The notes under the pieces were generated by a model, which worked only from the letters and a program-made list of their open reading frames with translations, made no database searches and was not told the origin of the DNA. A stretch of 64,000 bases of DNA from Rhynchopus sp. YZ270_cl-10 (taxonomy: Eukaryota), in contig OZ037843.1 of NCBI GenBank assembly GCA_964035575.1, positions 62,001-126,000 on the forward strand, read 5' to 3'. Position 1 is the stretch's first letter. Every line of letters begins with the position of its first letter. Below, one piece after another: positions 26,675 through 56,117 of this stretch. The translations under genes and the position numbers were made by a program.

Positions 26675-28608
26675 TAGTCTGATAAACAAAGAAACGAAAT
26701 CAAACGAAACAGAATTTTTTCGTTGATTGCACCGAATTTTTGTGGAAAAACCAAGACAATTATACCCGCCAACTGATCTTGATAACTTGATAAAAGGAAA
26801 GAAGGCTTATTTTCGTTGAACGCAGCCCAAAAGGTGAAATCCTGATGTGTCGCAAAGTGAAATGATGTGAAAAAGAAATGGATAAGTCGTTAACAAGTCA
26901 AATGTTGGCTTTCTTTTTTTGTCTGGTTTCTAAACACACTTCGTGGAGGGGAAAAAAGTGAGCAGGGACAAAATCAAAAAAAATTATGTTGATAAGTTGT
27001 GTCGTGTTTACGTCGGTCTCACCCAAAAAACTCGGGAACAGCTCTCGTGCATAGTTCCTCCCCCTACGACTTTTGCAAGGCAGTTTGTCTCAAAACAAGA
27101 ATGAATGAAATGAACAAATTTGATACACTATACTTTCCAATAGACGCTAGTGGTATATTAGAAGCAGGATTGCTGAAAAAGAAAACAGACCCTGAAGGCA
27201 CGAAAAAAAAAAATGCTCCGCATACCGGACGATACATACCCCTCCATCGGTTCGAGCAGTCAACACCTTCATAGAGTTTCAGGAGGAACGGACCCCCTCG
27301 GATGCAGTTTATAGTCCAGCCCAGGACCTTAGATTAAACAATAGAGAAATACAAATAAGAAAGTAAAAGGAAGAAAAGTTTTTAAGATAGAACCTAAGCC
27401 TCTCTGTGCTTAGTCACCTTAGGTCACATTCGTTATCGCAGTAGCAACAGCTGCGCGAGAACGAAACAACAGACGTTGACAAATAAATGAAACAACAAAA
27501 TCCTACAGGACAGAAGGGAAGCACAATTTTTATTCCGTATTCCGAGTCCTGCGACCGTACAGATTTTTTGGAGGCAGAGAACCGGAACAAAGAAAAAAAA
27601 TTGCTTCCCAGGAATCCCTAAAAAATGCGAAAAAAAGGGAGGGAGAGGAGCTACCGGAAAAAATGATTTATTGTTATTTTGTAACAATAAATGGGAAAAA
27701 CGAGCCTTCCTAAAAGAAGATTGAAACAAAGTGAAGTTATTAATGCAGGCATCTCCGACTGACCCACGTACGTTGCCAGCCATCCGGATGAAAGCACAAG
27801 TACCCTGCGGCCAACAACAGAAGATGTAAAAAGGAAACCTAATGACTGGCCCGTACCGTAAGAGAACGAGGGCGGTTCACAACCGCTCGACAGCCGGCGG
27901 CCCACCTTCCGTTGAAGAGTTGTGAGCTTACAGGTACTGCAGTTCGCTGCACCCAACGCTTGGTGCACGATAGTCTACACAAGAGAGCAGAAACCCAAAA
28001 ACACAAAAAGGGGTGGGCGGGGGGGTCACAACATCTCTCTCTTGGCGCCCCATGCTGTACCGACAGTTGGGCCTCACCCTTTCTCTTAGGGATATACATG
28101 GACGTCCTTACAGGCAGCACACCGTAACCCAAAGGCGTGGCAGAGAGACTCCGCAGAGCGACTCTGGCCTGACCGCTGGCCATTTATGCTCCGGGTGCGA
28201 GCACCCATCATAGCATAGGGGGGCCAGCCTGACCCAGCATTTATATACCCTGCCAGGGTGAACTTGCATAAAAGAGGGCAGGGGCGTTTAGACCCTGAGG
28301 ACTAGGGGAAGTCCCGCATACCCCAACAGAAAGACAAAGGCTATGCACTGGTGATAAAGGAGAGGCAGGGTTGCTGAAAAACAAAAAGACCCTGAAGGCA
28401 CAAAAACGCCCCGCATACCCCTCCTCGCCTCCTGTTTTGTAATCTCTCAGGTAGGAGACATCGGTTCGAGCGGTCAACACCTTCATAGAGTTTCTGGAGG
28501 AACGGACCCCCGGATGCAATTTAAGGTCCAGCCCAGGACCTAAAAAAGGAAAAATGATGGTAAAAATATTTTAAAAACGTTGGAGTCCCTCGGGAGGTTT
28601 CTGAAACC

Positions 28609-32572: not shown

Positions 32573-33164
32573 CGTTGTGCCGCTGTCCAAATGCGAGAAA
32601 AGGTGTTGAACCTGCGATGTGAAGGTGTGTGTGTGGTGGGTACTGAGGAAAACTCAAACGGCCATTTTAATACGCATATTTGTTCCGCACGCATAATACT
32701 GTGAAAACCAGTTGAACAATCCCAGCATGACAGAGCAGGAGGTCATTTGACCACTTTCCTGGATGCCAGGAAAGGGGAAGATGATTTTCGCGTCGAAGGC
32801 ATCCTCAAGGTGATCTCAAAAACAGTTGGGTAGGGGTGGCTTTTATTGTTTTCCATTTTAAAATGATTTTTCGTAGCAAAACCAAGCCATGCAATAGGCA
32901 GGGGAAGGGACCGAGGTCTCTTCGCGTGGGCCATTCAACAGGGGAAGTGTGGGTGGAAAAAGAGATAGGGCAAAACACCTCTGATTTGCAGCCAGTGAAG
33001 ATCCTGCTACCTAGAAAGGGGGGGGTTAGAACACCCGGGTTGTTGTTTTGCGGGGAAAACTGAACTAACATTTTGCAATAGTAGTTGGTGATAGCAGACA
33101 CCTCCGACTGACCCACGTACGATGCCAGCCATCCGGATGAACAGCATAAGAAGGAAGAACTATT

Positions 33165-33291
33165 CATAATTTTACGGTAATTATAACCCCATACTTACAC
33201 GCAGGTGGTTTATGTCACGAGCGGGTATTAACCCAAACGAGTGACATAAACCCACCTAAGTGCAATTAGGGGGGGATAATTACCAATTATG
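33165..33291 (+). other. Solo imperfect hairpin of the YR-associated hairpin family
   Basis: GGTAATTAT..CAC GC AGGTGG TTTATGTCAC GA ... GA GTGACATAAA C CCACCT AA GTG..ATAATTACC. Confidence 0.7.
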
Positions 33292-33979
33292 ACGAGTACA
33301 AAAAGTTACAGTATCTATAGAGTGGGGGTAGTAAATTGCAACCACACATCCTACTTTTCCCCACAAACAGTAAAACAATAAAAACAATAAAGACAAAAGG
33401 GAGAGGTTGTGATCCAACACCTCTACCGAAAAATTTAGGGGTTTTGGCATTTCGCCACGATTCTGGAAAAATCGATGGCGATAGCGAACGCCCTGAATGC
33501 AACATTATTTTTACTACGAGGGTAATAAAATGAAAGCAAAAAGGAAGGAATGTTTATAATGTGGCCCTAAGCCTCTCTGTGCTTAGTCTGATTAGATTAC
33601 TTTTTTCCTGTGCTTAGTCACCTTTGATCACATTCGTTATCGCAGTAGCAACAGCTGCGCGATAACGAAACAACAGACGTTGACAAATAAATGACCAACA
33701 AAATCCTACAGGACAGAAGGGAAGCACAATTTTGTTTTTGTTTTTTTTTTCATACTCCGAGTCCTTGCGCGCGGACAGATTTTTGTCAAATTTGAGAAGA
33801 TTAACTTGGGAAAAAGTATTCTTGTACTCTTTCTTGCTGATCGTTCTTTTACATTGCCTGCGTGCGTACAGATTTTTTGGAGGCTGAGAACCTGAACAAA
33901 GAAAAAGATGTTGTGCTTCCCAGGAATCCCTACACGGTGCGGTCTGTCGTGCTTGGAGTGTGTAAATAACGGACTTACC

Positions 33980-34110
33980 CCCTGAGTCCGACAGTCGGAC
34001 CCCCTGAGTCCGACAGACGGACTCAGGGGTCCGTCTGTCGGACTCTGGAGTCCGACAGACGGACTCTGGAGTCCGACTGTCGGACTCTGGGGTCCGACAG
34101 TCGGACCCAA
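33980..34110. repeat. Palindromic minisatellite GTCCGAC(A/T)G(T/A)CGGAC, left array
   Basis: Seen directly; matching array at 44897-45030. Confidence 0.9.
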
Positions 34111-34420
34111 AAAAAAAAAATTTTTTTTTTTTGGGCCGAAAAAAAAAATTTTTTTTTTCATAGTGTGAGAACGATCGTGACGGTTTTTTTCAAGATCTTG
34201 AACTTTTTTTCAAGATCTTGACATTTTTTTTTTTTATATCACATGTGAAAATGACTTTTTGCTGGGATCCTTCACAAACGGGGCGTGAAATAAAGTGAGC
34301 TTTTTTTCACGCTTGCTCTTAGTAATTTCGCTGGAGGCGTGAAAAAAAGTTTCACTGGCGTGAAAAAAAGTTTCACTGTTTTCTGTCAGTCACAAAACCA
34401 CACACTCCACCCTACAAATC

Positions 34421-35437
34421 ATGCCAAGGACCAAGAAGAAGGAGGCTATGGAGGATCTGTATGAGACCGAGCTTCTGGCAGGGTTGAAGTCAAGCACTGC
34501 ATACAAAACGGAGTGGAATAAGTTTTTACAACACAATAAAATCACGGGGCGGAAGCAGCCAAGAGAAGAACATGTGGTCTCTTACTTGACACACCTGCGC
34601 GAAGAACGCAGCTACAAAGCCAGCTCATTATGGTCGTGCTACTCTAAGCTCAACTTTATGTTCAAGACGGAGTTCGACTTTTCACTAAAGGAGTACCACC
34701 GCATCGGGCTGTTGCTGAAGACCTGGGGAAGTGACGAATCGACGAAGAAGAGCAAGACGTTTTCGAAGGGAGAAGTGGAGATGTTTCTCAAGATGAGCGA
34801 GTTGAGCGACTGCTACTGGTGTGTCCGCAAGGCTTACGTCGCGGTGTGTTTTCTGTCGGGAATGAGATGCACAGAAGCACTGATGCTTGAGATGACAAAT
34901 TATCAGGAATCACCAGTGGGATACCTCTTCACGTACCAGCACTGTGCTAAGGTGAAAAAGGCCGACATGGAGCGTGGGAGGTTTGTGGTACCAAGAGACA
35001 GCATCTACTTTTGTGTGGTGGAGGAGTACCTGAACCGGCGCTCACCAGTTTCACAGGAGGGTCGCTTCTTCATCACTGGAACTAAGACGACAGCTGACAG
35101 AACTACTACTGGGACCTTTCGTGTGCAACCTCTTGGCATCAACAAAATGTACGGCATACCTGCAGAAGTCGCGAGGGTGCTTGCGCTGGACGGTTCGTAC
35201 ACTGGGCACAGCTTCCGCAGGTCTTCTGCGACTCAAGCCGCTGAGGCAGGAGCATCTATTGTACAGATGCAACGCCACTATGGGTGGGTCAGTCAGGCAA
35301 TGCCACAAAGGTACACCGAAGTCACACAGGCCGGTCAAGTTGCGATGTCACAGCTGTTGACACAGAACAACAGTCCCCCAACTCAGACGCCACAAGAAGT
35401 CAAGATTAACATCAATGTGCAACAGAACAAACCATGA
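34421..35437 (+). CDS. Tyrosine recombinase, 338 aa, catalytic set intact
   Basis: SGMRCTE (R), AKVKK (K), GHSFRRS (HxxR), HYGW (H/W), RYTE (Y); N-terminal core-binding-like helices. Confidence 0.95.
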   Translation: MPRTKKKEAMEDLYETELLAGLKSSTAYKTEWNKFLQHNKITGRKQPREEHVVSYLTHLREERSYKASSLWSCYSKLNFMFKTEFDFSLKEYHRIGLLLKTWGSDESTKKSKTFSKGEVEMFLKMSELSDCYWCVRKAYVAVCFLSGMRCTEALMLEMTNYQESPVGYLFTYQHCAKVKKADMERGRFVVPRDSIYFCVVEEYLNRRSPVSQEGRFFITGTKTTADRTTTGTFRVQPLGINKMYGIPAEVARVLALDGSYTGHSFRRSSATQAAEAGASIVQMQRHYGWVSQAMPQRYTEVTQAGQVAMSQLLTQNNSPPTQTPQEVKININVQQNKP

Positions 35438-35730
35438 TCATGAGTGCAAAAAAAAAAAACCCCCCTTCTGTGATGCTCTATACACCTGCCCCCCCCCCTA
35501 CAGGCGAGATGAGTGGTGACATCTTGTAATTAGTACCAGTCATAGGAGGCATATATCAAAAAAAGTAACCCCTTCCCTGCTTTTGATTGATGTTCACATG
35601 TTCCCCTACTCTCATTCACACTCTCACTTACAGGTACCCACATTTTGTTCATAAAATCACTCTATTTTACGTCTCGTTTGTGAAGGATCCCAGCAAAAAT
35701 ATCATTTTCACTTGTAAAACAAAACTACGT

Positions 35731-35884
35731 ATTAGTTTGAAATAAAGTGCGTTTTTTCACTTCCACGTATTTTGTCTCACTCGTGCTCTATTATTGCCCT
35801 CGCCTGCGGCTCGGGCAATAAACTCTCACTCGTGAGCCAAAATTACGTGGGCGTGAAAAAAAGTGCACTTTATTTCACGCTAAT
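35731..35884 (-). other. ~150-nt imperfect terminal hairpin with strand-specific G.A mismatches and GCA triloop
   Basis: Minus strand reads ...TTTCAC GC CCACGTA..CTCAC GA GTG AGAGT TTATTGCCC GA GCC GCA GGC GA GGGCAATAA TAGAG CAC GA GTGAG..TACGTGG AA GTGAAA... Confidence 0.85.
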
Positions 35885-37099
35885 AATTAGTTATTTTTTC
35901 ACGATCGTTTTTTTTTTTCACGATCGTTTTTTTTTTTTCCCCTAGTAGTACAAGGGGCATGGGCGTGAAATGGGTGGCAAGGGAGAGTTTCTGGGTTCTA
36001 CTTGGACTTTTTTGACCGACTCTTTTCCTTGAAACGATTTTGTGGCGAATCTTTCAAATAAAGCAAAAATCGAGAACATTCTCACACCAGAATCCCCCCC
36101 AACGGATGTCGCCAGCGAGGCACTAAAACCAGAAAACCGTTTTTACCCATAGCAAGTGCCACTATAGTGGCGCACGAATGCCACACGTTGGTAGGGGTAA
36201 TGGGGTTCTACTCATTTTCGTAAAGACATTTTTTTTCTGTGTGACAAGAATAAGGCAAGAATCGACAACTTTCGTGAAAATGTCATATCGTTGGATGCTG
36301 GAGGGAGGTGGGTCAACCCTAGGAAAACGACTTTTTTTGGCGCTCACCCCCAAAATCACCCCCTGCCTCGTGACTTCGCCCTGCAAACAGAATTCTACTC
36401 AAAATCGTAAAATAAATTATATTTCGTAAGAATTGATGTCGATCTTTTAGATAAAGCCAAAATCGAGCAGTTTTGATGATTAGGTTAGTGCAGCCGTAAC
36501 AAGGAGAACACAGGGTAAAATCCCTTGGTTTTCCCTTGCTGTACTGTATGTGTTAAAAAGTGTGTATTGGTGTACGGGAGAGATGCGCGTTTAAAGTTGC
36601 AACATTTTTAGGCTGATTGACGTGGGCCTGGCATGCCCCATTTTTCACTTTTTACCACCGATTTAATTCGATCACCATCGAACACTGGGAAAATTTCTTG
36701 GTCAGTTTGGGGTATAACACGTGTATGACCTAATTTTAGGTGGTCAGAAGTGGAGTCTGACCCCCGTGCCCACATCATTTTTGAGCATGTTTTTTGGTTT
36801 TCCTCAGCACAACGTAGGAGAAGGCGAACTGTTTACAAGGAGGGACAGGGTCGAGCGTGAGTGGGTCACTGCAGTGGCTCACGATACACTGAACGGGTTT
36901 GCGGCTGGGAGGGAAACGTTTCCACTGTTACAGGCAAGTCACAAGGGGGTGGTGACTTGTGTGGGAGAAATGGGTACGGACAAGGCTGTATGCGTTTAGT
37001 CCCAAGAGCCTTCACTGATGTCAGAGTCGTGATGCTCAGCATCATCATCAACCTTGGGGTCCTCAGCTGTCGCGTCGCAGTCAATATAGCTCCCGCACG

Positions 37100-37340
37100 C
37101 TCCTTCTCCTCCTGCACCAGCTTCTCCTCATCCCACCAACCATTCTCTTGTGGCGGCTTGCTCTCGCGCAAACTGCGTGCTACGACCACAAGCTTGTGCA
37201 GCTTTGGTGCAACTAGCCAGTTGCGCCTCTTCTCGCTCATCCACCCATCGTACTGAAGATGCGCTCAGCATGTTGAGGCACAAATGGAACTCAGGGGAAG
37301 AGCTGTGGACAGAGAGGCCAGGGTTTGGGGTGCTGTGTGA
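37100..37340 (-). pseudogene. Frameshifted hAT transposase C-terminal dimerization-domain remnant
   Basis: Across frames: LASLSTALPLSS / AERIFSTMG / MSEKRRNWLVAPKLHKLVVVARSLR, matching the hAT ERxFS...RRNRL...L signature. Confidence 0.7.
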
Positions 37341-38746
37341 GCTACAAACGCTCCCCTTCACTCCTTAGATCAAACATTACCCGTTGTCTTGCAAGAACTT
37401 GCCCAATTCTGCAAATTGACCCCACCACTGCACGGGCGGCTTCCAAAAATGCAAATAAGGACCCTTTTCCACAACCTTCCTTCACAGAAGGGTCAATTTT
37501 ACAAACCCGGATTTTGAGGAAAATTTTAGCCGAAAATGGGCCCACGTATAAGTGACCGGGCTCATATTTCCCAAAATTTAAGTGGTCAAAAAATCCAATT
37601 TTCGAGATTGACCCCACCACTGCACGGGCGAATCCCAAATGTAAATAAAGACGTTTTTGGCCCAAAATAAATCTGCCAAAATTGTGTCCCGGATTGGATT
37701 TTGGACTCCGGACCCCATATTTAGAAATAGCCCTGTGTTCTAAACAATGAGCATCACAGCGGTTGACCCTGGTATTTTTGGTTTTTTTTGAAAATCTCAG
37801 CTCAAAAAATACCAAAAAAAAAAAAAAAAATACAGGCGTATCATCCTTGCGTGACCCCCCCAAATTCTAAAATCTGTGGACAGCGTGCTCTGACATAGGT
37901 TGTACTCATTAAAAAACCGGTAAAAATACAAGTAATGTGTGATGGTCAAAAGTGCAAAATTCCTTCGCCAATGCATTATTTGAGCATTTGTTATACCTGG
38001 AGAATATGGTCAGATCACTCTTCAGACCACCAGCCAACGAAATATACCGTAATTGTACAGAGGTTGGACAGTACAAAAGTTGGGGCTTTTGGCCAACTTG
38101 GCCTGGTGTTGAACCGCATCCCCCGCCACAATGGGCATAAATGTCCTCTTGGTCCGTAAAGGGTTAAAAAGAGTGTCTCACGATACACATACAACCACTC
38201 GCGATTGGATAGATATTATAACAAAGGGAATTCAGAACAAAACAACACCCTGCCCACACACTAAATTGCCATGCTTCAAGAGCATGCCTGCCGGGCCAAA
38301 AATTACTGTGGCAAAAAGGCAACAAGACCACCCACAAAGAGTGTGAATTGTATTGGATGGACAGGGGTTTGCACAGTGATGATGTTACTACGACTAGGTT
38401 TTTGGCGATATTACATGTGCATGTTACATGCCATGCCGTGACGTGCTGCTTCATGGTATACGCATGTCATAGAATGTCGCGATTTTTTACGATTCGTATT
38501 TCGGGTTTTGCGAATTTTGTTCCAGAAAAGTACACCCCAAAAATGGCAAAAAAGGTGACATTTTACGTCAAAACACCGCTAAAAGTTACTCTCGGCCGAT
38601 TTCAGGGGGGTTGTGGGCACCTGTGGGGGCTCCCTCCCTGGTGTGGGCCAGCGATCAACGACATAATATGGGAAAAAAAAAACGATCGTTTTTTTTTTCC
38701 TTCACGATCGTGAAGAAAAAGGTGCTTTTTTTTCACGATCGTGAAG

Positions 38747-40405
38747 AAATAACTAATTATTAGCGTGAAATAAAGTGCACTTTTTTTCACGCCCACGTAA
38801 TTTTGGCTCACGAGTGAGAGTTTATTGCCCGAGCCGCAGGCGAGGGCAATAATAGAGCACGAGTGAGACAAAATACGTGGAAGTGAAAAAACGCACTTTA
38901 TTTCAAACTAATACGTAGTTTTGTTTTACAAGTGAAAATGATATTTTTGCTGGGATCCTTCACAAACGAGACGTAAAATAGAGTGATTTTATGAACAAAA
39001 TGTGGGTACCTGTAAGTGAGAGTGTGAATGAGAGTAGGGGAACATGTGAACATCAATCAAAAGCAGGGAAGGGGTTACTTTTTTTGATATATGCCTCCTA
39101 TGACTGGTACTAATTACAAGATGTCACCACTCATCTCGCCTGTAGGGGGGGGGCAGGTGTATAGAGCATCACAGAAGGGGGGTTTTTTTTTTTGCACTCA
39201 TGATCATGGTTTGTTCTGTTGCACATTGATGTTAATCTTGACTTCTTGTGGCGTCTGAGTTGGGGGACTGTTGTTCTGTGTCAACAGCTGTGACATCGCA
39301 ACTTGACCGGCCTGTGTGACTTCGGTGTACCTTTGTGGCATTGCCTGACTGACCCACCCATAGTGGCGTTGCATCTGTACAATAGATGCTCCTGCCTCAG
39401 CGGCTTGAGTCGCAGAAGACCTGCGGAAGCTGTGCCCAGTGTACGAACCGTCCAGCGCAAGCACCCTCGCGACTTCTGCAGGTATGCCGTACATTTTGTT
39501 GATGCCAAGAGGTTGCACACGAAAGGTCCCAGTAGTAGTTCTGTCAGCTGTCGTCTTAGTTCCAGTGATGAAGAAGCGACCCTCCTGTGAAACTGGTGAG
39601 CGCCGGTTCAGGTACTCCTCCACCACACAAAAGTAGATGCTGTCTCTTGGTACCACAAACCTCCCACGCTCCATGTCGGCCTTTTTCACCTTAGCACAGT
39701 GCTGGTACGTGAAGAGGTATCCCACTGGTGATTCCTGATAATTTGTCATCTCAAGCATCAGTGCTTCTGTGCATCTCATTCCCGACAGAAAACACACCGC
39801 GACGTAAGCCTTGCGGACACACCAGTAGCAGTCGCTCAACTCGCTCATCTTGAGAAACATCTCCACTTCTCCCTTCGAAAACGTCTTGCTCTTCTTCGTC
39901 GATTCGTCACTTCCCCAGGTCTTCAGCAACAGCCCGATGCGGTGGTACTCCTTTAGTGAAAAGTCGAACTCCGTCTTGAACATAAAGTTGAGCTTAGAGT
40001 AGCACGACCATAATGAGCTGGCTTTGTAGCTGCGTTCTTCGCGCAGGTGTGTCAAGTAAGAGACCACATGTTCTTCTCTTGGCTGCTTCCGCCCCGTGAT
40101 TTTATTGTGTTGTAAAAACTTATTCCACTCCGTTTTGTATGCAGTGCTTGACTTCAACCCTGCCAGAAGCTCGGTCTCATACAGATCCTCCATAGCCTCC
40201 TTCTTCTTGGTCCTTGGCATGATTTGTAGGGTGGAGTGTGTGGTTTTGTGACTGACAGAAAACAGTGAAACTTTTTTTCACGCCAGTGAAACTTTTTTTC
40301 ACGCCTCCAGCGAAATTACTAAGAGCAAGCGTGAAAAAAAGCTCACTTTATTTCACGCCCCGTTTGTGAAGGATCCCAGCAAAAAGTCATTTTCACATGT
40401 GATAT
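38747..40405 (-). mobile_element. 1.66-kb tyrosine-recombinase element, copy R (inverted)
   Basis: Reverse complement of copy L apart from homopolymer length; hairpin at 38759-38912. Confidence 0.88.
39204..40220 (-). CDS. Tyrosine recombinase, 338 aa, identical to 34421-35437
   Basis: Identical translation in the ORF track. Confidence 0.95.
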   Translation of the reverse strand: MPRTKKKEAMEDLYETELLAGLKSSTAYKTEWNKFLQHNKITGRKQPREEHVVSYLTHLREERSYKASSLWSCYSKLNFMFKTEFDFSLKEYHRIGLLLKTWGSDESTKKSKTFSKGEVEMFLKMSELSDCYWCVRKAYVAVCFLSGMRCTEALMLEMTNYQESPVGYLFTYQHCAKVKKADMERGRFVVPRDSIYFCVVEEYLNRRSPVSQEGRFFITGTKTTADRTTTGTFRVQPLGINKMYGIPAEVARVLALDGSYTGHSFRRSSATQAAEAGASIVQMQRHYGWVSQAMPQRYTEVTQAGQVAMSQLLTQNNSPPTQTPQEVKININVQQNKP

Positions 40406-40890
40406 AAAAAAAAAAAAAAAAACGATCGTTTTTTTTTTCTTCACGATCGTGAAAAAAAAAAAAAAAAAAAAAGACCGATCACTTTTTCCCAGATTCGTAA
40501 AAAAAAAAAAAAAAAAAAAACGATCGTTTTCACCCTATGTTTTTTGGCCAAAAAAATTTTTTTGGCCGAAAATCGCCTTGTATAGCCACTACAGTACACA
40601 TGGTTTTACCAAAATAGCCGTATTTTGGCTGAAAATTTGACTTGAAAATTTTTTTCATTGTTTGGTCAATCTGAGGTTTTCTTTGAATTTTTTGGGCCAT
40701 TTTATGACCTACTACACCCAATTTTTGGGGGATTTTTTTTTTCTTGGTCAAAAAATAGCGCTTGTTGCCTACTACTGGGTATAGGCTTGTTCAGAGGTGT
40801 GTATTTGGTGTACCCAGACATGGTCAAAACACATGAATTTTGCGTTTTTTTGCATTTTTAGGTTCTCGACCAACCAGGGGGCGACCAATT

Positions 40891-41009
40891 TGGGTACTGG
40901 GTACTGGGTACTGGGTACTGGGTACTGGGTACTGGGTACTGGGTACTGGGTACTGGGTACTGGGTACTGGGTACTGGGTACTGGGTACTGGGTACTGGGT
41001 ACTGGGTAC
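40891..41009 (+). repeat. (TGGGTAC)17 heptamer microsatellite
   Basis: Seen directly. Confidence 0.97.
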
Positions 41010-41418
41010 CAAGAGAAGGCAGCTTGACAGCAGCGAAGGCGGAGGCTACGGGGAAGACAAGGTATGTAAATGTTTAACTTTCAGTTACTTGTGTAGATGC
41101 AAACAACACACCCAGTGGTTTGCAGCATTTTATTTTCTTGTGTGCTTTCTCTTCTTTGAATCGAAAGTATGTGAACCTTATTACATCATGATACAATGCA
41201 ACGAGGCCGAAACAGCCTCACTAAGGCCTCTGAAAATAAATGTTCAGACTTGGCACTTACTTATGTTTAGGTGCGCCTCAACCACACGCTTGAATATATT
41301 TAATTTGCCACACCTCAGATAGATTTTCCAGATATGCCTATGTTCAGGTGTTCCAGGCCTCGTCACAAATAGACAAAAAAACAAAAGCCAAAACAACAGA
41401 GAGAGAGCCAACAATTTT

Positions 41419-41720
41419 TTATCTCACTTGTGTAATAATGTTTAGCCGCGTTTTCGAAATTCCTTCCTGGAGATTACACAAAATACAGTAGACATTATCT
41501 CCGCACACAAAGAACAAAACAAAACCCATGCCGAGAGTAGGCGCAAAAGCAATATGGAGGAGATCTGCGCATGCAACCAAAAGGGTTGCAGTCATAGGAC
41601 TTCGAGGAACTGTTCACCATACCCAACCTTGACGCCCCGTACTAGGTGGTCATACATCATTTGTCAAATATACTGTAGGAATTTCGAAAACGCAGCACAA
41701 CATTATTGCCCGTGAGATAA
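41419..41720 (+). mobile_element. IR-bounded cassette A with a probable degenerate YR 5' fragment
   Basis: ~45-bp IR TTATCTCAC..AATAATGTT..GCGTTTTCGAAATTCCT (41419-64 / 41677-720). ATG at 41528 gives MPRVGAKA then frameshifted MEEI, weakly like YR MPRTKKKEAMEDL. Confidence 0.55.
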
Positions 41721-42535
41721 TAACTATTTATTCGAGTGAAATAAGAACTATTTTATTTCACGCGCCACTAAAAAGGTGCCCGAGTGCGTTATTTCCCGAG
41801 CGAAGCGAGGGGAATAAGAGTGAGAGTCACGAGGGTGCCTTTTTAGTGGCAAGTGCAAGAAAATGTTCTTATTTCACTCAATATGTAATTTTATTCCACA
41901 AGTGAAAAACGTATTTATAGGTGTAAACAGTGGAACGTTGAGCCCACGCTCCACCCCTCACACCACCACACTTCAAATTACAGATTATTTATTGCCTCTT
42001 ACACACATGCCTAAACCCACGCGCAAGTTTGCGGAGATGGAGGATGCATATGACAACTTGTTCGACGACATGAACAGTGGTGTGCAGTACAGGAAAACAT
42101 GGGACGATTTCCTCCGTTTCAACAGACTTTCAGGAGCGAACGAGCCCAGGGAAGAACACGTCGTGTCCTTCAGATCACTCCGTGATCTTTTATTTCACTC
42201 CCCCACCCAATCCTTCACGATTTGCGTGAAATAAAACGTGAAATAAAACGAATCTTATTTCACTCACTTTTTCACCTGTTTACGTTTTTCACGCGTGGTA
42301 TAAAATTACGTATCGAAAACTAAAGTGAACATTATTTAACTGATGGGTGATTCACAAACTGGAATACGTGATACCCACTCGCTATCGCTCGTGACATCAC
42401 TTTTATGATTACACTCACTTCACTCATGAAATCAAAATGCTGAACTCCACTCGCTTCGTGAAGTTGAGCCCCAGTTTGAGTCACCCACCACCTCGTGAAA
42501 TAATGTTCACTTTATTTCATGAGATAATAATTATC
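41719..42535 (+). mobile_element. Internally deleted YR-element relative: hairpin A - IR - YR fragment - IR - hairpin B
   Basis: Hairpin 41734-41879; 33-bp IR 41881-41913 / 42281-42313; branched hairpin ~42311-42525; end ATAACTATTTATT resembles ATAACTAATTATT of the full element. Confidence 0.8.
42007..42171 (+). pseudogene. Truncated YR N-terminus (diverged paralog)
   Basis: MPKPTRKFAEMEDAYDNLFDDMNSGVQYRKTWDDFLRFNRLSGANEPREEHVVSF aligns with YR MPRTKKKEAMEDLYE...AYKTEWNKFLQHNKITGRKQPREEHVVSY. Confidence 0.85.
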
Positions 42536-42547
42536 TAACTCAGTGAA

Positions 42548-43404
42548 ATAAAACTCGTGTAATTTTGCAGATTATATGCCCTTTGTGTCACTCAATTGTA
42601 ACCGAGAATGTAAGGCAGTGAGTATTTGATCTGCCCTTTATGTCGCGAAATACTATGTTTGGTGTTTTGACGTCTTCCAAGCAGATGGATATTCCCTCAC
42701 TTGCACGCAATCTACCGAGGAACCGACTGCCTTTCTCAAAAGCCAGTACATGTCGGGGTGTCGAGGTCCGTGTCAATACAAAGCGGACCAAGTCGCTCGA
42801 GGTTTGAAAACCGCAAGAACTCGTCCCATTTCTTCTTGTACACCTCCTTGCTTCTCATACCCGCTGAGACTTGGTATCCGTAAGTGTCATACATCCTGTC
42901 CTTCTTCGTTTTGGCAGTGTTTGAGGGGAGTGATGAAAAAGTTCTTTTTTTTACTGAGTGATTTTTTTAACCAAAAGAAAACCGACGCAGGAGCTTTTCT
43001 GGAACTGTTTTATTCTCCCCACCCCAACAACATCACATTTCAGAAAAACATTGTTTTTTCGTTTTTGTTCACTTTCTTTTCTTCTCCCTCACACCTGTTT
43101 GCTGTGAATTAAATTTTTTCGTTTCGGCCTGGTCGCAAACGCGAGTTTTCCTGGAAGCGCAGGAAAAATGACTGGGGAGTGTTGGTGGCTCCGTGACGCC
43201 ACAGAGCCGGCACACTCGTTGAGTGCCTCACAAAACCTCAAATTTATTCCGCTTTGATTTCATTTATTGTCTTCACGCTTTATCGTTGTTGTTGGGTTGG
43301 GAAATAATATTTCATTCTCCCATACATTCTCGGTTACAATTGAGTGACAAAGGGCACATTATCACCCACCTTTGTGGGAATTCACAAAATTACACGAGTT
43401 TTAT
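42548..43404 (-). mobile_element. IR-bounded cassette C containing a YR 5' fragment on the minus strand
   Basis: Perfect 20-bp IR ATAAAACTCGTGTAATTTTG (42548-67) / CAAAATTACACGAGTTTTAT (43385-404). Confidence 0.65.
42800..42917 (-). pseudogene. Another truncated YR N-terminus (not in the ORF track)
   Basis: Minus strand translates AKTKKDRMYDTYGYQVSAGMRSKEVYKKKWDEFLRF, aligning with RTKKKEAMEDLYETELLAGLKSSTAYKTEWNKFLQH. Confidence 0.75.
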
Positions 43405-44896
43405 CCCCTTTTTTTACCACATTAACCTCACCTTTCCCGATAACTGCGTTTCTACACCATACATTTCATTCATTAATCACACTCCACATTTACACTCATC
43501 ACAGGATCGTGAAATCTGAACTGCATCTGCGATTGTGATGAGAAGCCTCGCCGCGTCTCCGACATTCAGCAACTCAAAATCCAAAGAGTATCACCCGCAT
43601 CAATCCATTCTGAGTTTGCGGACTAAGATCTGGGGTGGAAGGGGGATGGGTACACTTTGTCAGTCACTGCTATTGCCATTTAACCCAGGGAGCATAGCTA
43701 GTGCAAGAAATTCGACTTTGGAAACCTTCCGGAAAGTCTGTCCTCTGCTTGCGGAGGACGAGGCACAAGAAAATATTGCGTTCCCCCAGAAAACCAGTGC
43801 ACATTTCACACTCCTTGTGGGTGGTCTTGTTGCCTTTTTGTCACAGTAATTTTGGCCCAGGCATGCTCTTGAAGCATGACAATTTAGTGTGTATGGGGCA
43901 GGGTGTTGTTTTGTTCTGAATTCTCTTTGTTATAACATCTGGTTTGTGTAGCGTGAGGCACTCTTTTTAACAAACTTCCTGCGGCTGCTAAAGCGTTATT
44001 TCTTCGGATTTAACAACGTACAGCGTAACATAGTGGATTCGCCTGGTCGACACAACCTTTGATAGATATGGGATAACCAACCCCCTTCGACCCCTCGTGG
44101 GTTCACTAAACAAGCCCTCGTGGTAGTTAAACGCGATTGACATTTACATTCCTAGAGATGAAAGAACAAGACAACACTTCTGTACCCGCGCATCAAAATT
44201 GTGGAAAACTTTGCACCCCAAACACCCTCAACAACGCCCGCCAAAAGGCGCCCCTTGTTGCTGGGAGTTGGTTCTCATGTTTGATACCTGCACAGCGGGC
44301 ATTCCTCTGAGTCCAACGCATGTTTGGCCTGTCTGCGGCGTTGTACTTCAGGTGCACGAAGACAGGGTCTGGTGGTAAATTTTGCGTAGTGTCGCATTCC
44401 CTCATGTGTGGGTCACTCACACTTGGCGGTCATGTGCCACTGCGTGGGTCTGGGAATTTGGGTACCTGGGTACAGGAAATTTGTTGTGGAAGACATCAAC
44501 CACCATGCATTGAGGAGGGTAAGACAGTGTTCGCAGTTTCTACCTGATAGCATTACAACATTTAACTTCTCCACGGGGGTCTTGGGCCGTTCACTCGGTT
44601 CTACCTTGACTACCGGAAGATATTCTTGAGGCCTTTCTGGTCTCTAGAATATCCGGTCTTCCCGAACGGAGGCACACTTTGTGTGTTACTACGACCTGGC
44701 AATTTCCAGCAGTAGGTTAAGTAATCTTTCTTGTAAATTGTTGGATCATTATCTCCTCAGTGCATGAATGCCCCACGTGACTGGACACTTTTGTGTTTGT
44801 CATGTGGAGCTGTGGTTGCTCTTTCACGACTTTTTTCCTGTTCCTGGGTACCTGTTCCTGGACCTGGACCTGGGTACCTGGGCACCTGGGTGTGCC

Positions 44897-45030
44897 TGTC
44901 GGACCCCAGGGTCCGGCAGTCGGACTCAGGGGTCCGACTGTGAGTCCGACAGTCGGACCCCTGAGTCCGACTGTCGGACTCAGGGGGTCCGACTGTCGGA
45001 CCCCCTCGGACTCCGACAAAAGGGTCCGAC
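44897..45030. repeat. Palindromic minisatellite GTCCGAC(A/T)GTCGGAC, right array
   Basis: Seen directly. Confidence 0.9.
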
Positions 45031-52601: not shown

Positions 52602-53046
52602 TGTTCTGAGGTGTACAGAAAGGGAAGAAAGTGCATGGAATGTCTGGGGCTGTGTGGTGGTGTGTGGATGCCTTGTGAGGGTAACTCTTGCGAAGTCTCG
52701 TCGAAGCTATTTCCCTGTTGATAACGGTAAATATGCGGATTTCCGGTATGAATGTGTTCGCCTGAAGTGCAGAAAGGCTGTCATGGAACACAGGGGAGAT
52801 AAGAGAGGGGAAACAAGCGGGGAGTTTGAATGGGGTTTTATTGAAGTTTTTTATATGTTTGCTTTGTGTTATTGTTTTGTTTTGCTTTTTGAAAACTTGG
52901 TTGTATTAGCCACCCTAGAGTGTGCTCCACTATTAGTTTTTTTTTTTTTGTTTTGTTTTGTTTTGTAGTATGGGTGTTCTGGGAACGAGGTAATTCATGT
53001 GTAATGGGGCGGGATGGGGTGGAACGGGGGGAATTTAAAGTTTTTT

Positions 53047-54966
53047 GGGAGATAGTCAGACTTACCCTACCCTATTTTGAAAAAGTTCAGACTTGCCCTA
53101 TGAAAAAGTTCAGACTTGCCCGAAAATAAGTTCAGACTTGCCCTAAAAGTGTTTTTAGGGCAAGTCTGAACTTATTTTTAGGGCAAACACTTTTTTTAGG
53201 GCAAGTCTGAACTTTTTTAGGGCAAGTCTGAACTTTTTTAGGGCAAGTCTGAACTTATTTTTAGGGTAAGTCTGAACTTATTTTAGGGCAACAAGTCAGG
53301 CCACTTTGGCTGGGGCACTCTTGGGGCCCCATGTGGTATGACTTGTTTTATTGCCCTAAAATGCCTAACCGAGCCGGAGCCCAAAAATTGATGCCAGAAA
53401 CCACCAGCCACCCGGAAAGGGTGAACAGGCAGTCCACGTTGGGCCAGAACCGGTTACAAAGGAAGCCGTGTTCTGGGGCAACGTGGGGCGCAAAGTTTTA
53501 CAATTTTCATGCACGGGTGCTCCACAAATTACCAAGTATTCCTTCTTTGTTGAATTGAGAGAGAGTCAGTGTTTAGCTACCACGCGGGTTTGCTTAGAAT
53601 CCTTCGAGGCCGGCACAATTTTATTTATGTGGTCGGTTAAGACATGCCTATTGAAGAACAACGAGATCATCGTTGAAAGGAGCGAACTCCCCTTCCCACA
53701 ACATCTCTCACATTTCAACTCAGAATTCATACTTGGTTGTTTGCTTTGTCCATACGCAATCAAATTGTCATGCTTTCAAGAGCATGCCTGGCCAAAATGC
53801 AACAACGTGGAAAAATTGTTGTTGTTCCAAAAGGCAACAAGACCACCCACAAGGGGTTGAATTGTGCACTGTCCGGGGGAGCGCAAAGTTTTTTCCCTGT
53901 ACACAGTGGACACATCTTTATCACTTTGTTCCCACGGGGACACATTTGGATACTGCACGCATGCAGAAGTGCCAAACATGTCCGCACGTGGAGTGGAGTG
54001 TCCATCATGTTTTCCTGGTTTCCAAAAAGCAGTTTTCTTGCACTTACTATTTGCCCCGGTGTCTGGCAATAGAAGTGGCTAACATTGTAATGAGTAGCAT
54101 ATACATACCGTTGATCCAAATGAGTAAGGCGACCAACAAGTCCTCTGGACTTTTTTGTTGTGACGACAATCGCGGAGTAATCCCGGAGAATTACATCCTC
54201 GTATAAAAAGTTAAAGGTAGAGGTGGGGAAACTGTAGCTATAGAAATAGTTGTTGCAGTAGTGCAGACACCCGAGGGTGCACCACTATGCTTTTCTTTGG
54301 TTGTATCGACAATTTTACGTACATGATGTAGGACCTGTACAATGTCGCCCAAAGGCTTTGTACTTACTGCAGTAATCGGTATTTTTTTTTTGTTACTACT
54401 ACGTCGTGTTCTATGAGGAGTCGCGTTTGGGTGCGGAAGTCTTTTTTCTGGTCTCTGTTCTGTACGGGTCTCGGATCGTGGTGCGGTACTGCGGTGCGGT
54501 ACCTGAGAGTTTTTTAGAGTGATGATAAAGGTCAGAGGGTTTTCCCCTCCCATTTGTGTCATTATTTAATTTTGCTCGGAAAGTGGGGTGTCCTGGACAC
54601 GAGGAAATTCAGTTGCATGGAAAAAAAGCTCCATACCATAGGTTGCTCATTTCACTACCAGGACTCGTCGCGAATAGCCCATACGTGCCCTAAACAGAAA
54701 CGCAAAAACGACGACCGCCGGGCTCTGTAACCCAAGAGCCCCCAGCTTGCCCAATAAATAAGTGCAGGGTTGCCCTAAAAAAGTTCAGACTTGCCCTAAA
54801 AAAGTTCAGACTTGCCTTAAAAAAAGTGTTTGCCCTAAAAATAAGTTCAGACTTGCCCGAAATAAGTTCAGACTTGCCCTAAAAACACTTTTAGGGCAAG
54901 TCTGAACTTATTTCGGGCAAGTCTGAACTTTTTCAAAATAGGGTAGGGTAAATCTGACTATTTCCC
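53047..54966. mobile_element. Non-autonomous Mutator/MULE-like element
   Basis: Long TIR GGGA(G/A)ATAGTCAGA(C/T)TTACCCTACCCTATTTTGAAAAAGTTCAGACTTGCCC; 9-bp TSD AAGTTTTTT; subterminal AAGTTCAGACTTGCCCTAAAA arrays. Confidence 0.88.
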
Positions 54967-56117
54967 AAGTTTTTTGCTTTTTTTGTTTCCTCCCGTTTTT
55001 TGAACACGAAAAGTCCAAAAAAAAAAAAACTGGAATTCGTCGAGAACAACAGTTGCATCAGCAACATTGAGCTGGGCATTAGCTTTGAGGTCTACTCAGG
55101 CATCTTGCTGCGAAAGTGCAAACAGGTCGCCCATGCCCTGTCTGTGCGTGAGCGAGGGAAGGTGATGTCCTCTGGCTTCGATGGTTCCGGAAGCACTGCG
55201 CCGATAGCAAGCTGGGCTGCCCTTCCCAGAGAGAAAGTGACAACGGTGCACTGCCTACGGCCTGATTAAGCTACGGTCAAAATGAGTGTAAGGTAAAGAG
55301 GGCAAGGTAAACCCCACAACCCAGATTTTCTCTCCTGATCCTGACGTCTGAAAACATGAAAATGCCCGAAAACACCGGCATTCGCATTTCTGGAATCCGT
55401 CCGTTTGTGTGGTGGGTCAATTTTCCGAAATGGACAAGTTCTTGGTTTTGGTCAAAACTCGTCAGTGTAAGGTAAGGAGCCAAGTGTTTGCCTGTAGAAA
55501 CACGGTAGCAGAGGGGCGAGATTTTAGAGGCCCCACCCATGCGTGTATATTTGGCAAAAAACACAGACATTCTATTTTATTTTGCCGAAATCATACGCCC
55601 AAGATTGAACTAAGGGAAGACACCCCAAGCCCTCACCAATAGGCCTAAACCTGCAGTACTGATGTGGGAAGGAGTCCCTCAGCTGTGCCTAATGCCATGC
55701 CACAGAAACATAAAGGGTCCTTCTCGATACCCAACACCCCATAATACCCATTCTCGTTGATACCCATTTTCAAACGTGGGTAATAAGGAGTTATCGTCTG
55801 TCACATTCCTCCATGTATGCGTCACACTTGAGGTATGTGCACCTGGGTACCTGGGCCCAGAATTATTTTGCTAATACCCACTTTTTGAAAAATGGGTATC
55901 AAGAATGGGTATTGGTTTTTGGGGAGTTGTTAGAGAAGTTAACCCAAAAAATGAAAGATGAGTGTCTTGTAAAAGACAGTCCTGATGTTCACCACATGAG
56001 TGTGGTGTATGTGTGCGAGAGATGGGGAGCACGGGAGGGAACAAACGACTCGTGGATACTGAAACATCACCTGAAATTGAAGTCACCAAAAATGCACACA
56101 CAAGGATAGACAACCTA

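What the first reader, a model, noticed from the sequence alone, without database searches (positions are those of the whole stretch)
33165..33291. Solo hairpin shows structure conserved while sequence diverges
Seen: three hairpins with different stems share the same unpaired features: a 5'-CAC GC / AA GTG-3' internal loop followed inward by a tandem GA/GA pair. Full element: CAC GC CCACG..CGTGG AA GTG. Hairpin A (41734-41879): CAC GC GCCAC..GTGGC AA GTG, with CCC-GA-GTG/CAC-GA-GGG replacing CAC-GA-GTG/CAC-GA-GTG and a GA-GCGAAGC-GA cap. This solo copy: CAC GC AGGTGG..CCACCT AA GTG. Inference: compensatory changes indicate selection on fold, and this copy is a minimal non-autonomous site or an excision scar.
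Basis: partly seen in the sequence, partly recalled or inferred. Interest (0 to 1): 0.8.

Follow-up and report, generated by a model that had tools for sequence, protein, structure and literature searches.

The report
Orphan hairpin end of recombinase transposon
The lone hairpin is real and has the same fold, loop letters and spacing as the hairpins at one end of nearby recombinase-encoding jumping genes and of their distant relatives, so it is likely a leftover end of such an element, and the shared design suggests these transposons move as folded single-stranded DNA.

Summary
Observation confirmed. The CAC-GC/AA-GTG loop plus tandem GA/GA occurs four times in the window (solo, hairpin A, two copies of a 1.7-kb tyrosine-recombinase (YR) element) and in 0 of 300 shuffles. 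The fold is family-wide: long GA/GA hairpins flank related YR genes in 20 of 60 metagenome locus clusters (0-1 in shuffles). They keep one polarity, covarying stems, DNA-type caps and a fixed spacing from a terminal motif: 42-46 nt to GC/AA and 62-67 nt to GA/GA (solo 45 and 63). Full elements add an asymmetric inverted repeat whose far arm abuts the hairpin base, so a single-stranded circle would fold into one rod across its junction, like CTXphi attP or integron attC (inferred). The solo copy lacks that repeat and any YR remnant. It is single-copy, shows no empty site in four runs, and has two diverged sisters, one still capped. It is best read as the orphaned end of a third low-copy family, not an excision scar or a working mini-element. 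The YRs look CryptonI-like; I found no such hairpin described for Cryptons in print, though earlier AI notes in this scan saw similar ends.

The parts
33154..33298 (+). Solo hairpin (the finding): orphan terminal hairpin of a third, low-copy family
33156..33165 (+). Degenerate terminal motif at the hairpin base, followed by an AT/CG bubble like that of E1; 63 nt from the tandem GA
   Evidence: PWM built from metagenome loci only: -0.9 bits, top 0.7% of window 10-mers, not significant alone; spacing; bubble
33198..33262 (+). CAC-GC / AA-GTG 2x2 loop (33201-02, 33258-59) enclosing tandem GA/GA (33219-20, 33239-40) and a short uncapped apex
34224..35908 (+). E1a: full YR element, 99.8% identical to E1b; the last ~14 nt are probably target rather than element
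34421..35437 (+). Intact 338-aa tyrosine recombinase ORF (R149, K177, H263, R266, W289, Y298)
   Evidence: Pfam PF00589; conserved residues in alignment A1
34232..34298 (.). E1a far-end inverted repeat; its partner 35657-35724 abuts the hairpin base
34283..34312 (.). 30-bp quasi-palindromic box, repeated in the hairpin's outer arm at 35851-35880; candidate YR-binding site (inferred)
   Evidence: sequence
35725..35894 (-). E1a terminal hairpin (GC/AA, two GA/GA, GCA triloop cap)
38735..40417 (-). E1b: second copy, inverted; YR 39204-40220 (-); hairpin 38749-38918 on the + strand
41720..42316 (+). E2: internally deleted element of a second family: hairpin A (41720-41890), inverted repeats 41878-41932 / 42265-42316, YR 5' fragment 42007-42171 (93% to P0004)
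42318..42534 (-). Hairpin B: branched, diverged GA hairpin abutting E2's far inverted repeat
42548..43404 (-). E4: inverted-repeat-bounded remnant (42548-42618 / 43317-43404) with a YR 5' fragment at 42912-42781

Best explanation
The solo hairpin is likely the orphaned terminal hairpin of a decayed, low-copy family of CryptonI-like tyrosine-recombinase DNA transposons. Shown: in full elements one strand reads terminal motif, hairpin (GC/AA loop at 42-46 nt, tandem GA/GA at 62-67 nt), inner inverted repeat, YR gene in either orientation, far inverted repeat, A-rich end. The far repeat and the hairpin's 5' arm pair with adjacent stretches of the same partner strand. Inferred mechanism: when that strand is single, it folds so that its two ends meet in the middle of one long duplex. 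The YR would exchange one strand pair there, releasing a single-stranded circle and later inserting it at A/T-rich targets, with replication resolving the junction as for CTXphi attP and integron attC. This would give copy gain without target duplication. The non-canonical loops would mark the reactive strand and nucleate folding. The solo copy keeps the hairpin module but has lost the inverted repeats and the gene, so it is predicted to be immobile.
For: Geometry: the solo has terminal motif to GC/AA = 45 nt and to GA/GA = 63 nt, with 16/17-nt arms between the loops, identical to L035; six other hairpins span 42-46 and 62-67. Family link: GA/GA rods in 20 of 60 clusters of YR loci (19 of 60 representatives vs 0-1 in 20 shuffles, AG/AG control 1). 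Polarity: 15 upstream/sense, 5 downstream/antisense, 0 otherwise. Terminal motif learned from 19 metagenome hairpins (199 vs 141-147 bits in 5 shuffles) also finds the bases of E1, A and B (7.4, 8.0, 5.3 bits). The far inverted repeat beats the shuffle maximum for E1, E2 and 11 of 21 metagenome hairpins. It starts within 1-7 nt of the terminal motif's partner in 9 of 13 chosen cases. DNA rather than RNA: GNA triloop caps; DNA mini-hairpins are far more stable than RNA ones (PMC13037366 passages); only 12 isolated G-T among 1420 WC pairs; the hairpin is antisense to the YR in downstream cases; no Rfam hit. Relic status: single contig at single-copy depth with no joint in 4 of 4 runs, and two diverged sisters, one with the same short apex (4 of 4 runs) and one with a GC-GCA-GC-capped apex (3 of 4 runs). 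No YR remnant lies between the solo and E1a.
Against: No strand exchange, circle or single-stranded form was observed; the mechanism is analogy. 40 of 60 clusters lack the GA/GA rod at my threshold; many are short contigs, but L051 and L062 have 3 kb on both sides. One of the 20 hits (L013) looks like an AT-rich tandem repeat. Loci are related by descent, so the 20:0 polarity is not 20 independent trials. L018 (GA/AA, borderline) and a second hairpin in L032 lie downstream on the sense strand; the latter has its own inverted-repeat pair. The solo's terminal motif is not significant alone. Its inner stems are nearly perfect (12 and 6 pairs), more than an old relic might keep. The sisters are known only from 30-nt loose ends and 34-42 aligned nt. 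No YR could be tied to the solo's family. The GA-GC-GAA-GC-GA cap also occurs in 122 viral loci without this YR, so the cap alone is generic.
Confidence: 0.6

Rival explanations
1. The hairpin is mainly a complementary-strand origin or protected priming/promoter signal for an excised single-stranded circle. The YR acts on ordinary duplex sites formed by the inverted repeats. The solo would still be an orphan end.
For: The same GA-GC-GAA-GC-GA cap occurs in 122 viral loci. GCGAAGC mini-hairpins are reported at phage replication and transcription origins (PMC13037366 passages). E1 has 30-bp palindromic boxes of loxP-like size.
Against: In viral loci only 2 matches extend into a long rod and none has a YR of this family. 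The apex is the most variable part (absent in solo, L022, L027), while base motif and spacing are fixed. The far repeat ends at the hairpin base.
Confidence: 0.15
2. The solo is a working minimal non-autonomous element (hairpin only) kept by selection on its fold.
For: It runs from the terminal motif to the base bubble, starts in an A-rich tract (family loose ends), keeps near-perfect inner stems, and shares a short apex with a sister at another locus.
Against: Single copy, and the sisters differ at 5 of 42 and 3 of 34 nt. No inverted-repeat pair, whereas the small gene-less units seen (E2; the ~460-nt unit in L032) keep theirs. Terminal motif and cap are degenerate.
Confidence: 0.1
3. These are Helitron2/Helentron-type ends moved in trans by a RepHel protein, with the YR as passenger or resolvase.
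For: Asymmetric terminal inverted repeats plus a subterminal hairpin, T-rich ends and a gene in either orientation are Helitron2 features (PMC3627910 passages).
Against: Helitron2 repeats are 8-15 bp with the inner one 20-30 bp from the end. Here they are 15-70 bp with a 100-200-nt rod outside. The layout tracks one YR family across both main branches of the tree and the catalytic residues are conserved. RepHel genes were not searched for.
Confidence: 0.08
4. The solo is an excision scar left by a YR element.
For: It sits within 10 kb of four YR elements or remnants.
Against: The hairpin lies inside the terminal motif and travels with all E1 copies (contig 35518-35897 at the same depth as the YR). 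Clean Crypton excisions left only the short target in Chlamydomonas (bioRxiv 2022.05.23.493040 passages). No filled or empty allele was seen.
Confidence: 0.04
5. The fold acts as RNA, or the solo is a chance palindrome that happens to resemble the others.
For: Tandem GA pairs are also RNA motifs (recalled). The window is rich in palindromes. The solo does not align to E1 or A.
Against: GNA triloops, scarce G-T pairs and antisense placement. Three landmarks at the family spacing and a GNA-capped sister argue against chance. No RNA run was available.
Confidence: 0.03

Closest known systems
CryptonI DNA transposons (Kojima & Jurka 2011, PMC3212892; parts 1-2 of 7 read plus term search)
   Same: Single YR-only ORF with no C-terminal domain, no target-site duplication seen, non-autonomous derivatives; named homologs are insect YR proteins and the top Atlas cluster is mostly arthropod
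   Different: The paper reports no terminal repeats for animal Cryptons and has 0 occurrences of hairpin, palindrom, stem or single-strand. Here there are asymmetric inverted repeats and a strand-specific hairpin, in a host that looks like a protist (inferred from genes). No direct comparison with Repbase CryptonI sequences was possible.
CTXphi attP and integron attC (PMC4792948 passages)
   Same: YR acting on a folded single strand, strand choice set by unpaired bases, replicative resolution (predicted here)
   Different: Eukaryotic, self-encoded Cre-like YR (best PDB sequence hits Cre; IntI4 only E 7e-4). The markers are sheared-type GA/GA and GC/AA loops rather than single extrahelical bases. 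The site would form only on circularisation. Untested.
Helitron2/Helentron termini (PMC3627910 passages)
   Same: Asymmetric terminal inverted repeats with a hairpin outside the inner repeat; gene in either orientation; compensatory changes
   Different: YR instead of RepHel; longer repeats; 100-200-nt rod with fixed non-canonical loops
GCGNAGC / GCGNNAGC DNA mini-hairpins (PMC13037366 passages)
   Same: Apical caps of E1, A and most relatives
   Different: Only the apex; absent from the solo copy

Membership tests
Crypton (CryptonI) | Single ORF encoding a YR with intact catalytic residues, no RT or DDE | tested here: met
   E1 ORF 338 aa, PF00589; R149, K177, H263, R266, Y298 conserved. Applies to E1; the solo has no ORF.
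Crypton (CryptonI) | YR groups with insect CryptonI sequences | tested here: inconclusive
   Homologs include named insect YR proteins, but window YRs fall in a different branch from them in a quick tree; no Repbase CryptonI sequence was available
Crypton (CryptonI) | No terminal inverted repeats | tested here: not met
   68-bp asymmetric inverted repeat in E1 and in 11 of 21 related hairpin loci above shuffle maximum
Crypton | Short 4-6-bp terminal direct repeats, no target-site duplication | tested here: inconclusive
   A-rich 1-7-nt overlap between the two ends in 9 of 13 cases; no empty site available; E1 flanks are poly-T/A
Helitron2/Helentron | Asymmetric terminal inverted repeats with hairpin beyond the inner repeat | tested here: met
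   Layout met, sizes differ
Helitron2/Helentron | RepHel (HUH + helicase) transposase | tested here: not met
   The only long ORF in E1 is the YR; mobilisation in trans not tested
attC / CTXphi attP-type folded site | One strand folds with conserved unpaired features and variable stem sequence | tested here: met
attC / CTXphi attP-type folded site | YR recombines the folded single strand; replicative resolution | not testable with these tools
   needs biochemistry
Non-autonomous derivative (solo copy) | Both element ends present and multiple near-identical copies | tested here: not met
   no far inverted repeat; single-copy, sisters diverged
Known structured RNA | Rfam match | tested here: not met
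   0 matches at gathering threshold in the window

The most novel reading that the evidence does not exclude
CryptonI-like elements across protists and animals are a eukaryotic class of single-strand 'peel-and-paste' transposons. Their tyrosine recombinase reads a structure code (terminal motif, GC/AA loop at ~45 nt, sheared GA/GA at ~63 nt) on one folded strand, and hairpin-only modules like this solo copy can be moved or targeted as attC-like cassettes.
Probability: 0.3. Interest if true: 0.85.

Novelty: new variant of a known kind. Interest (0 to 1): 0.6.

Why it matters
How YR-only Cryptons transpose is unresolved. [quoted passage not shown] A conserved, strand-specific folded end whose geometry predicts the circle junction makes that directly testable with a 338-aa enzyme and ~200-nt oligonucleotides, and would be a eukaryotic parallel to integron and CTXphi recombination. 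The descriptor also gives a way to find ends of elements described as having none. The solo copy itself is probably a dead fragment; its value is as a natural covariation control.

Tried and rejected
No whole genome was held, so genome-wide copy counts and empty-site searches were impossible; run contigs were used instead. No RNA holder was listed, so expression is untested. The word-indexed protein search found only the query. Viral contigs held no YR relatives, and plasmids gave 3 weak partial hits. The broad alignment A1 was too diverged for locus search. My first combined descriptor missed the solo because it demanded 3 inner pairs at GA/GA. A degenerate cap pattern found 0 of 71 loci (too rigid), and a 19-nt cap found 0 viral matches. 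MAFFT misregistered one- and two-tier hairpins, so no covariance model was built and landmark-anchored counts were used. The EGF-gene paralog downstream of 30201 is not an empty site: homology stops about 160 nt before the solo. Ongoing inversion of the E1 body was considered; an unbranched 380-nt contig across the inner repeat and hairpin in one run gives no sign of it. The tree is the quick version only (careful search unfinished; 8 short loci left out). Contig depth is only a rough guide to copy number.

Full report
Observation. The descriptor hits the solo (33198-33262), hairpin A (41759-41855) and both copies of the full element (38788-38885 +, 35855-35758 -), and 0 of 300 shuffled windows. 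The solo folds with z -8.4, equally on both strands by ViennaRNA. Its tandem GA has 12 outer pairs but only one inner pair, and there is no GNA cap.

Context. The window is a repeat-rich eukaryotic sequence; the Atlas places one host gene nearest a cluster that is mostly heterolobosean, so I infer a protist. No genome is held. Two 99.8% identical, inverted 1.7-kb elements (E1a 34224-35908, E1b) encode an intact 338-aa YR. Contig depth over E1 is roughly 15-60 times that of single-copy neighbours in four runs (a rough guide only). Hairpin A begins a deleted element of a second family, with a YR fragment 93% identical to P0004. A branched hairpin B and a further YR remnant follow. E1 and A hairpins are homologs with compensatory stems, and the YR points in opposite directions relative to them.

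Relatives. The YR has 393 relatives at E<1e-10 among cluster representatives. Named ones are insect YR proteins, and the top Atlas cluster is mostly arthropod. An alignment of 12 relatives retrieved 71 metagenome loci, which form 60 clusters. Long hairpins with a GA/GA loop occur in 20 of 60 clusters, the next non-mirror types in 6. On cluster representatives the count is 19 of 60, against 0-1 in 20 shuffles and 1 for AG/AG; GC/AA is 6, against 0-2 in shuffles. One hit (L013) looks spurious. All 20 loci put the GA strand sense-upstream (15) or antisense-downstream (5). Exceptions outside that count are a borderline GA/AA in L018 and a second hairpin in L032 that has its own inverted-repeat pair. 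Hairpins occur in both main branches of a quick tree (83 rows, 8 short loci left out), including the branch with the insect proteins; a 9-row clade has none. L032, L035 and L023 carry the xAC-GC/AA-GTx loop exactly.

Anatomy. A terminal motif learned from 19 metagenome hairpins scores 199 bits against 141-147 in 5 shuffles, and finds the bases of E1, A and B. The solo's match is degenerate (-0.9 bits, top 0.7%, 13 positions tried). Across 7 hairpins chosen for having both loops, the motif lies 42-46 nt from the GC/AA (GA/AA in L050) loop and 62-67 nt from the first GA/GA. The solo has 45 and 63, with 16/17-nt arms as in L035. 104 of 112 cells pair, and 13 of 16 columns use more than one pair type. 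Caps are mostly GNA triloops, with some GNNA and C-TT-G loops; that the latter two are stable DNA loops is recalled. Isolated G-T pairs are 12 among 1420 WC pairs. The GA strand folds lower in 13 of 13 cases. An inverted repeat starts at the hairpin's 3' base, with its partner at the far end of the element. It beats shuffles in E1, E2 and 11 of 21 metagenome hairpins (one of these not at the base), and lies at the base but below the shuffle maximum in three more. In 9 of 13 chosen cases the far arm and the terminal motif pair with adjacent, 1-7-nt overlapping positions of one partner strand. A circle made from that strand would therefore fold into a continuous rod across its junction (inference).

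The solo copy. It lies on one 286-287-nt contig with no other letters, at single-copy depth, with no joint, in 4 of 4 runs. These runs may include the window's source. Two diverged sisters appear: one shares the short apex (4 of 4 runs), the other keeps a long apex with a GC-GCA-GC cap (3 of 4 runs). The solo has no far inverted repeat (23 vs shuffle maximum 25) and no YR remnant nearby. It is flanked by unrelated high-copy repeats. I read it as the orphaned end of a third family. A working hairpin-only element is not excluded; an excision scar is unlikely.

Mechanism. Shown: architecture, polarity, covariation, spacing. Inferred: single-strand folding in vivo, one-strand exchange by the YR, replicative resolution, as described for attC and CTXphi (PMC4792948 passages). 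Against over-reading the cap: it occurs in 122 viral loci, almost never in a long rod (2 matches) and never with this YR, and mini-hairpins mark replication origins (PMC13037366 passages).

Literature. Searches found no paper describing hairpin ends in Cryptons. Kojima and Jurka 2011 (parts 1-2 of 7 read, term search) report no terminal repeats in animal Cryptons. Term searches of PMC5753468 and the 2026 Glomhopper paper gave 0 for hairpin and palindrome. Helitron2 has a similar layout with smaller parts (PMC3627910 passages). Supplements and Repbase entries were not seen and could list such termini. Earlier AI notes in this scan describe hairpin-ended YR elements in other genomes; I reached the model before that call, and they are not independent evidence.

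Verdict. Real, and part of a conserved, apparently unpublished end structure of Crypton-like elements; the solo copy is most likely a dead end-fragment. New variant of a known kind; interest 0.6.

Noticed in passing
window 33154-43404: The solo hairpin, two E1 copies, E2 and E4 cluster in about 10 kb and none occur in the other 54 kb; L032 likewise has a gene-less hairpin unit beside a YR element. Possible local or end-directed targeting.
   Followed up: partly
window 41720-42534: E2 has GA hairpins at both ends (A on +, branched B on -), each in register with an arm of the same inverted repeat.
   Followed up: partly
window 34170-34225, 35895-35940, 38680-38745, 40420-40460: E1 flanks are poly-T/A tracts with repeated short palindromes (ACGATCGT-type) resembling the element's own boxes; possible preferred target.
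   Followed up: no
window 34337-34375: Two further copies of the GCGTGAAA box just upstream of the YR start; candidate autoregulatory operators.
   Followed up: no
window 53045-54968: Inverted-repeat-bounded ~1.9-kb unit with arrays of a 21-nt palindromic repeat at both ends; probably another DNA transposon derivative.
   Followed up: no
window 33977-34110 and 44880-45001: Arrays of a GTCCGAC/GTCGGAC palindromic repeat, forming the strongest local folds in the window.
   Followed up: no
window 1-20800: Tandem 10-kb duplication of a ~2700-aa DUF3638/DUF3645 gene.
   Followed up: no
L072-L193 (viral contigs): The GA-flanked GCGAAGC cap recurs in 122 viral loci, mostly intergenic and outside long rods; looks like a generic ssDNA signal.
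   Followed up: partly
window 33094-33150: A ~50-nt repeat next to the solo has extremely high contig depth in all four runs and a second copy at 27745-27800; SINE-like, unidentified.
   Followed up: no
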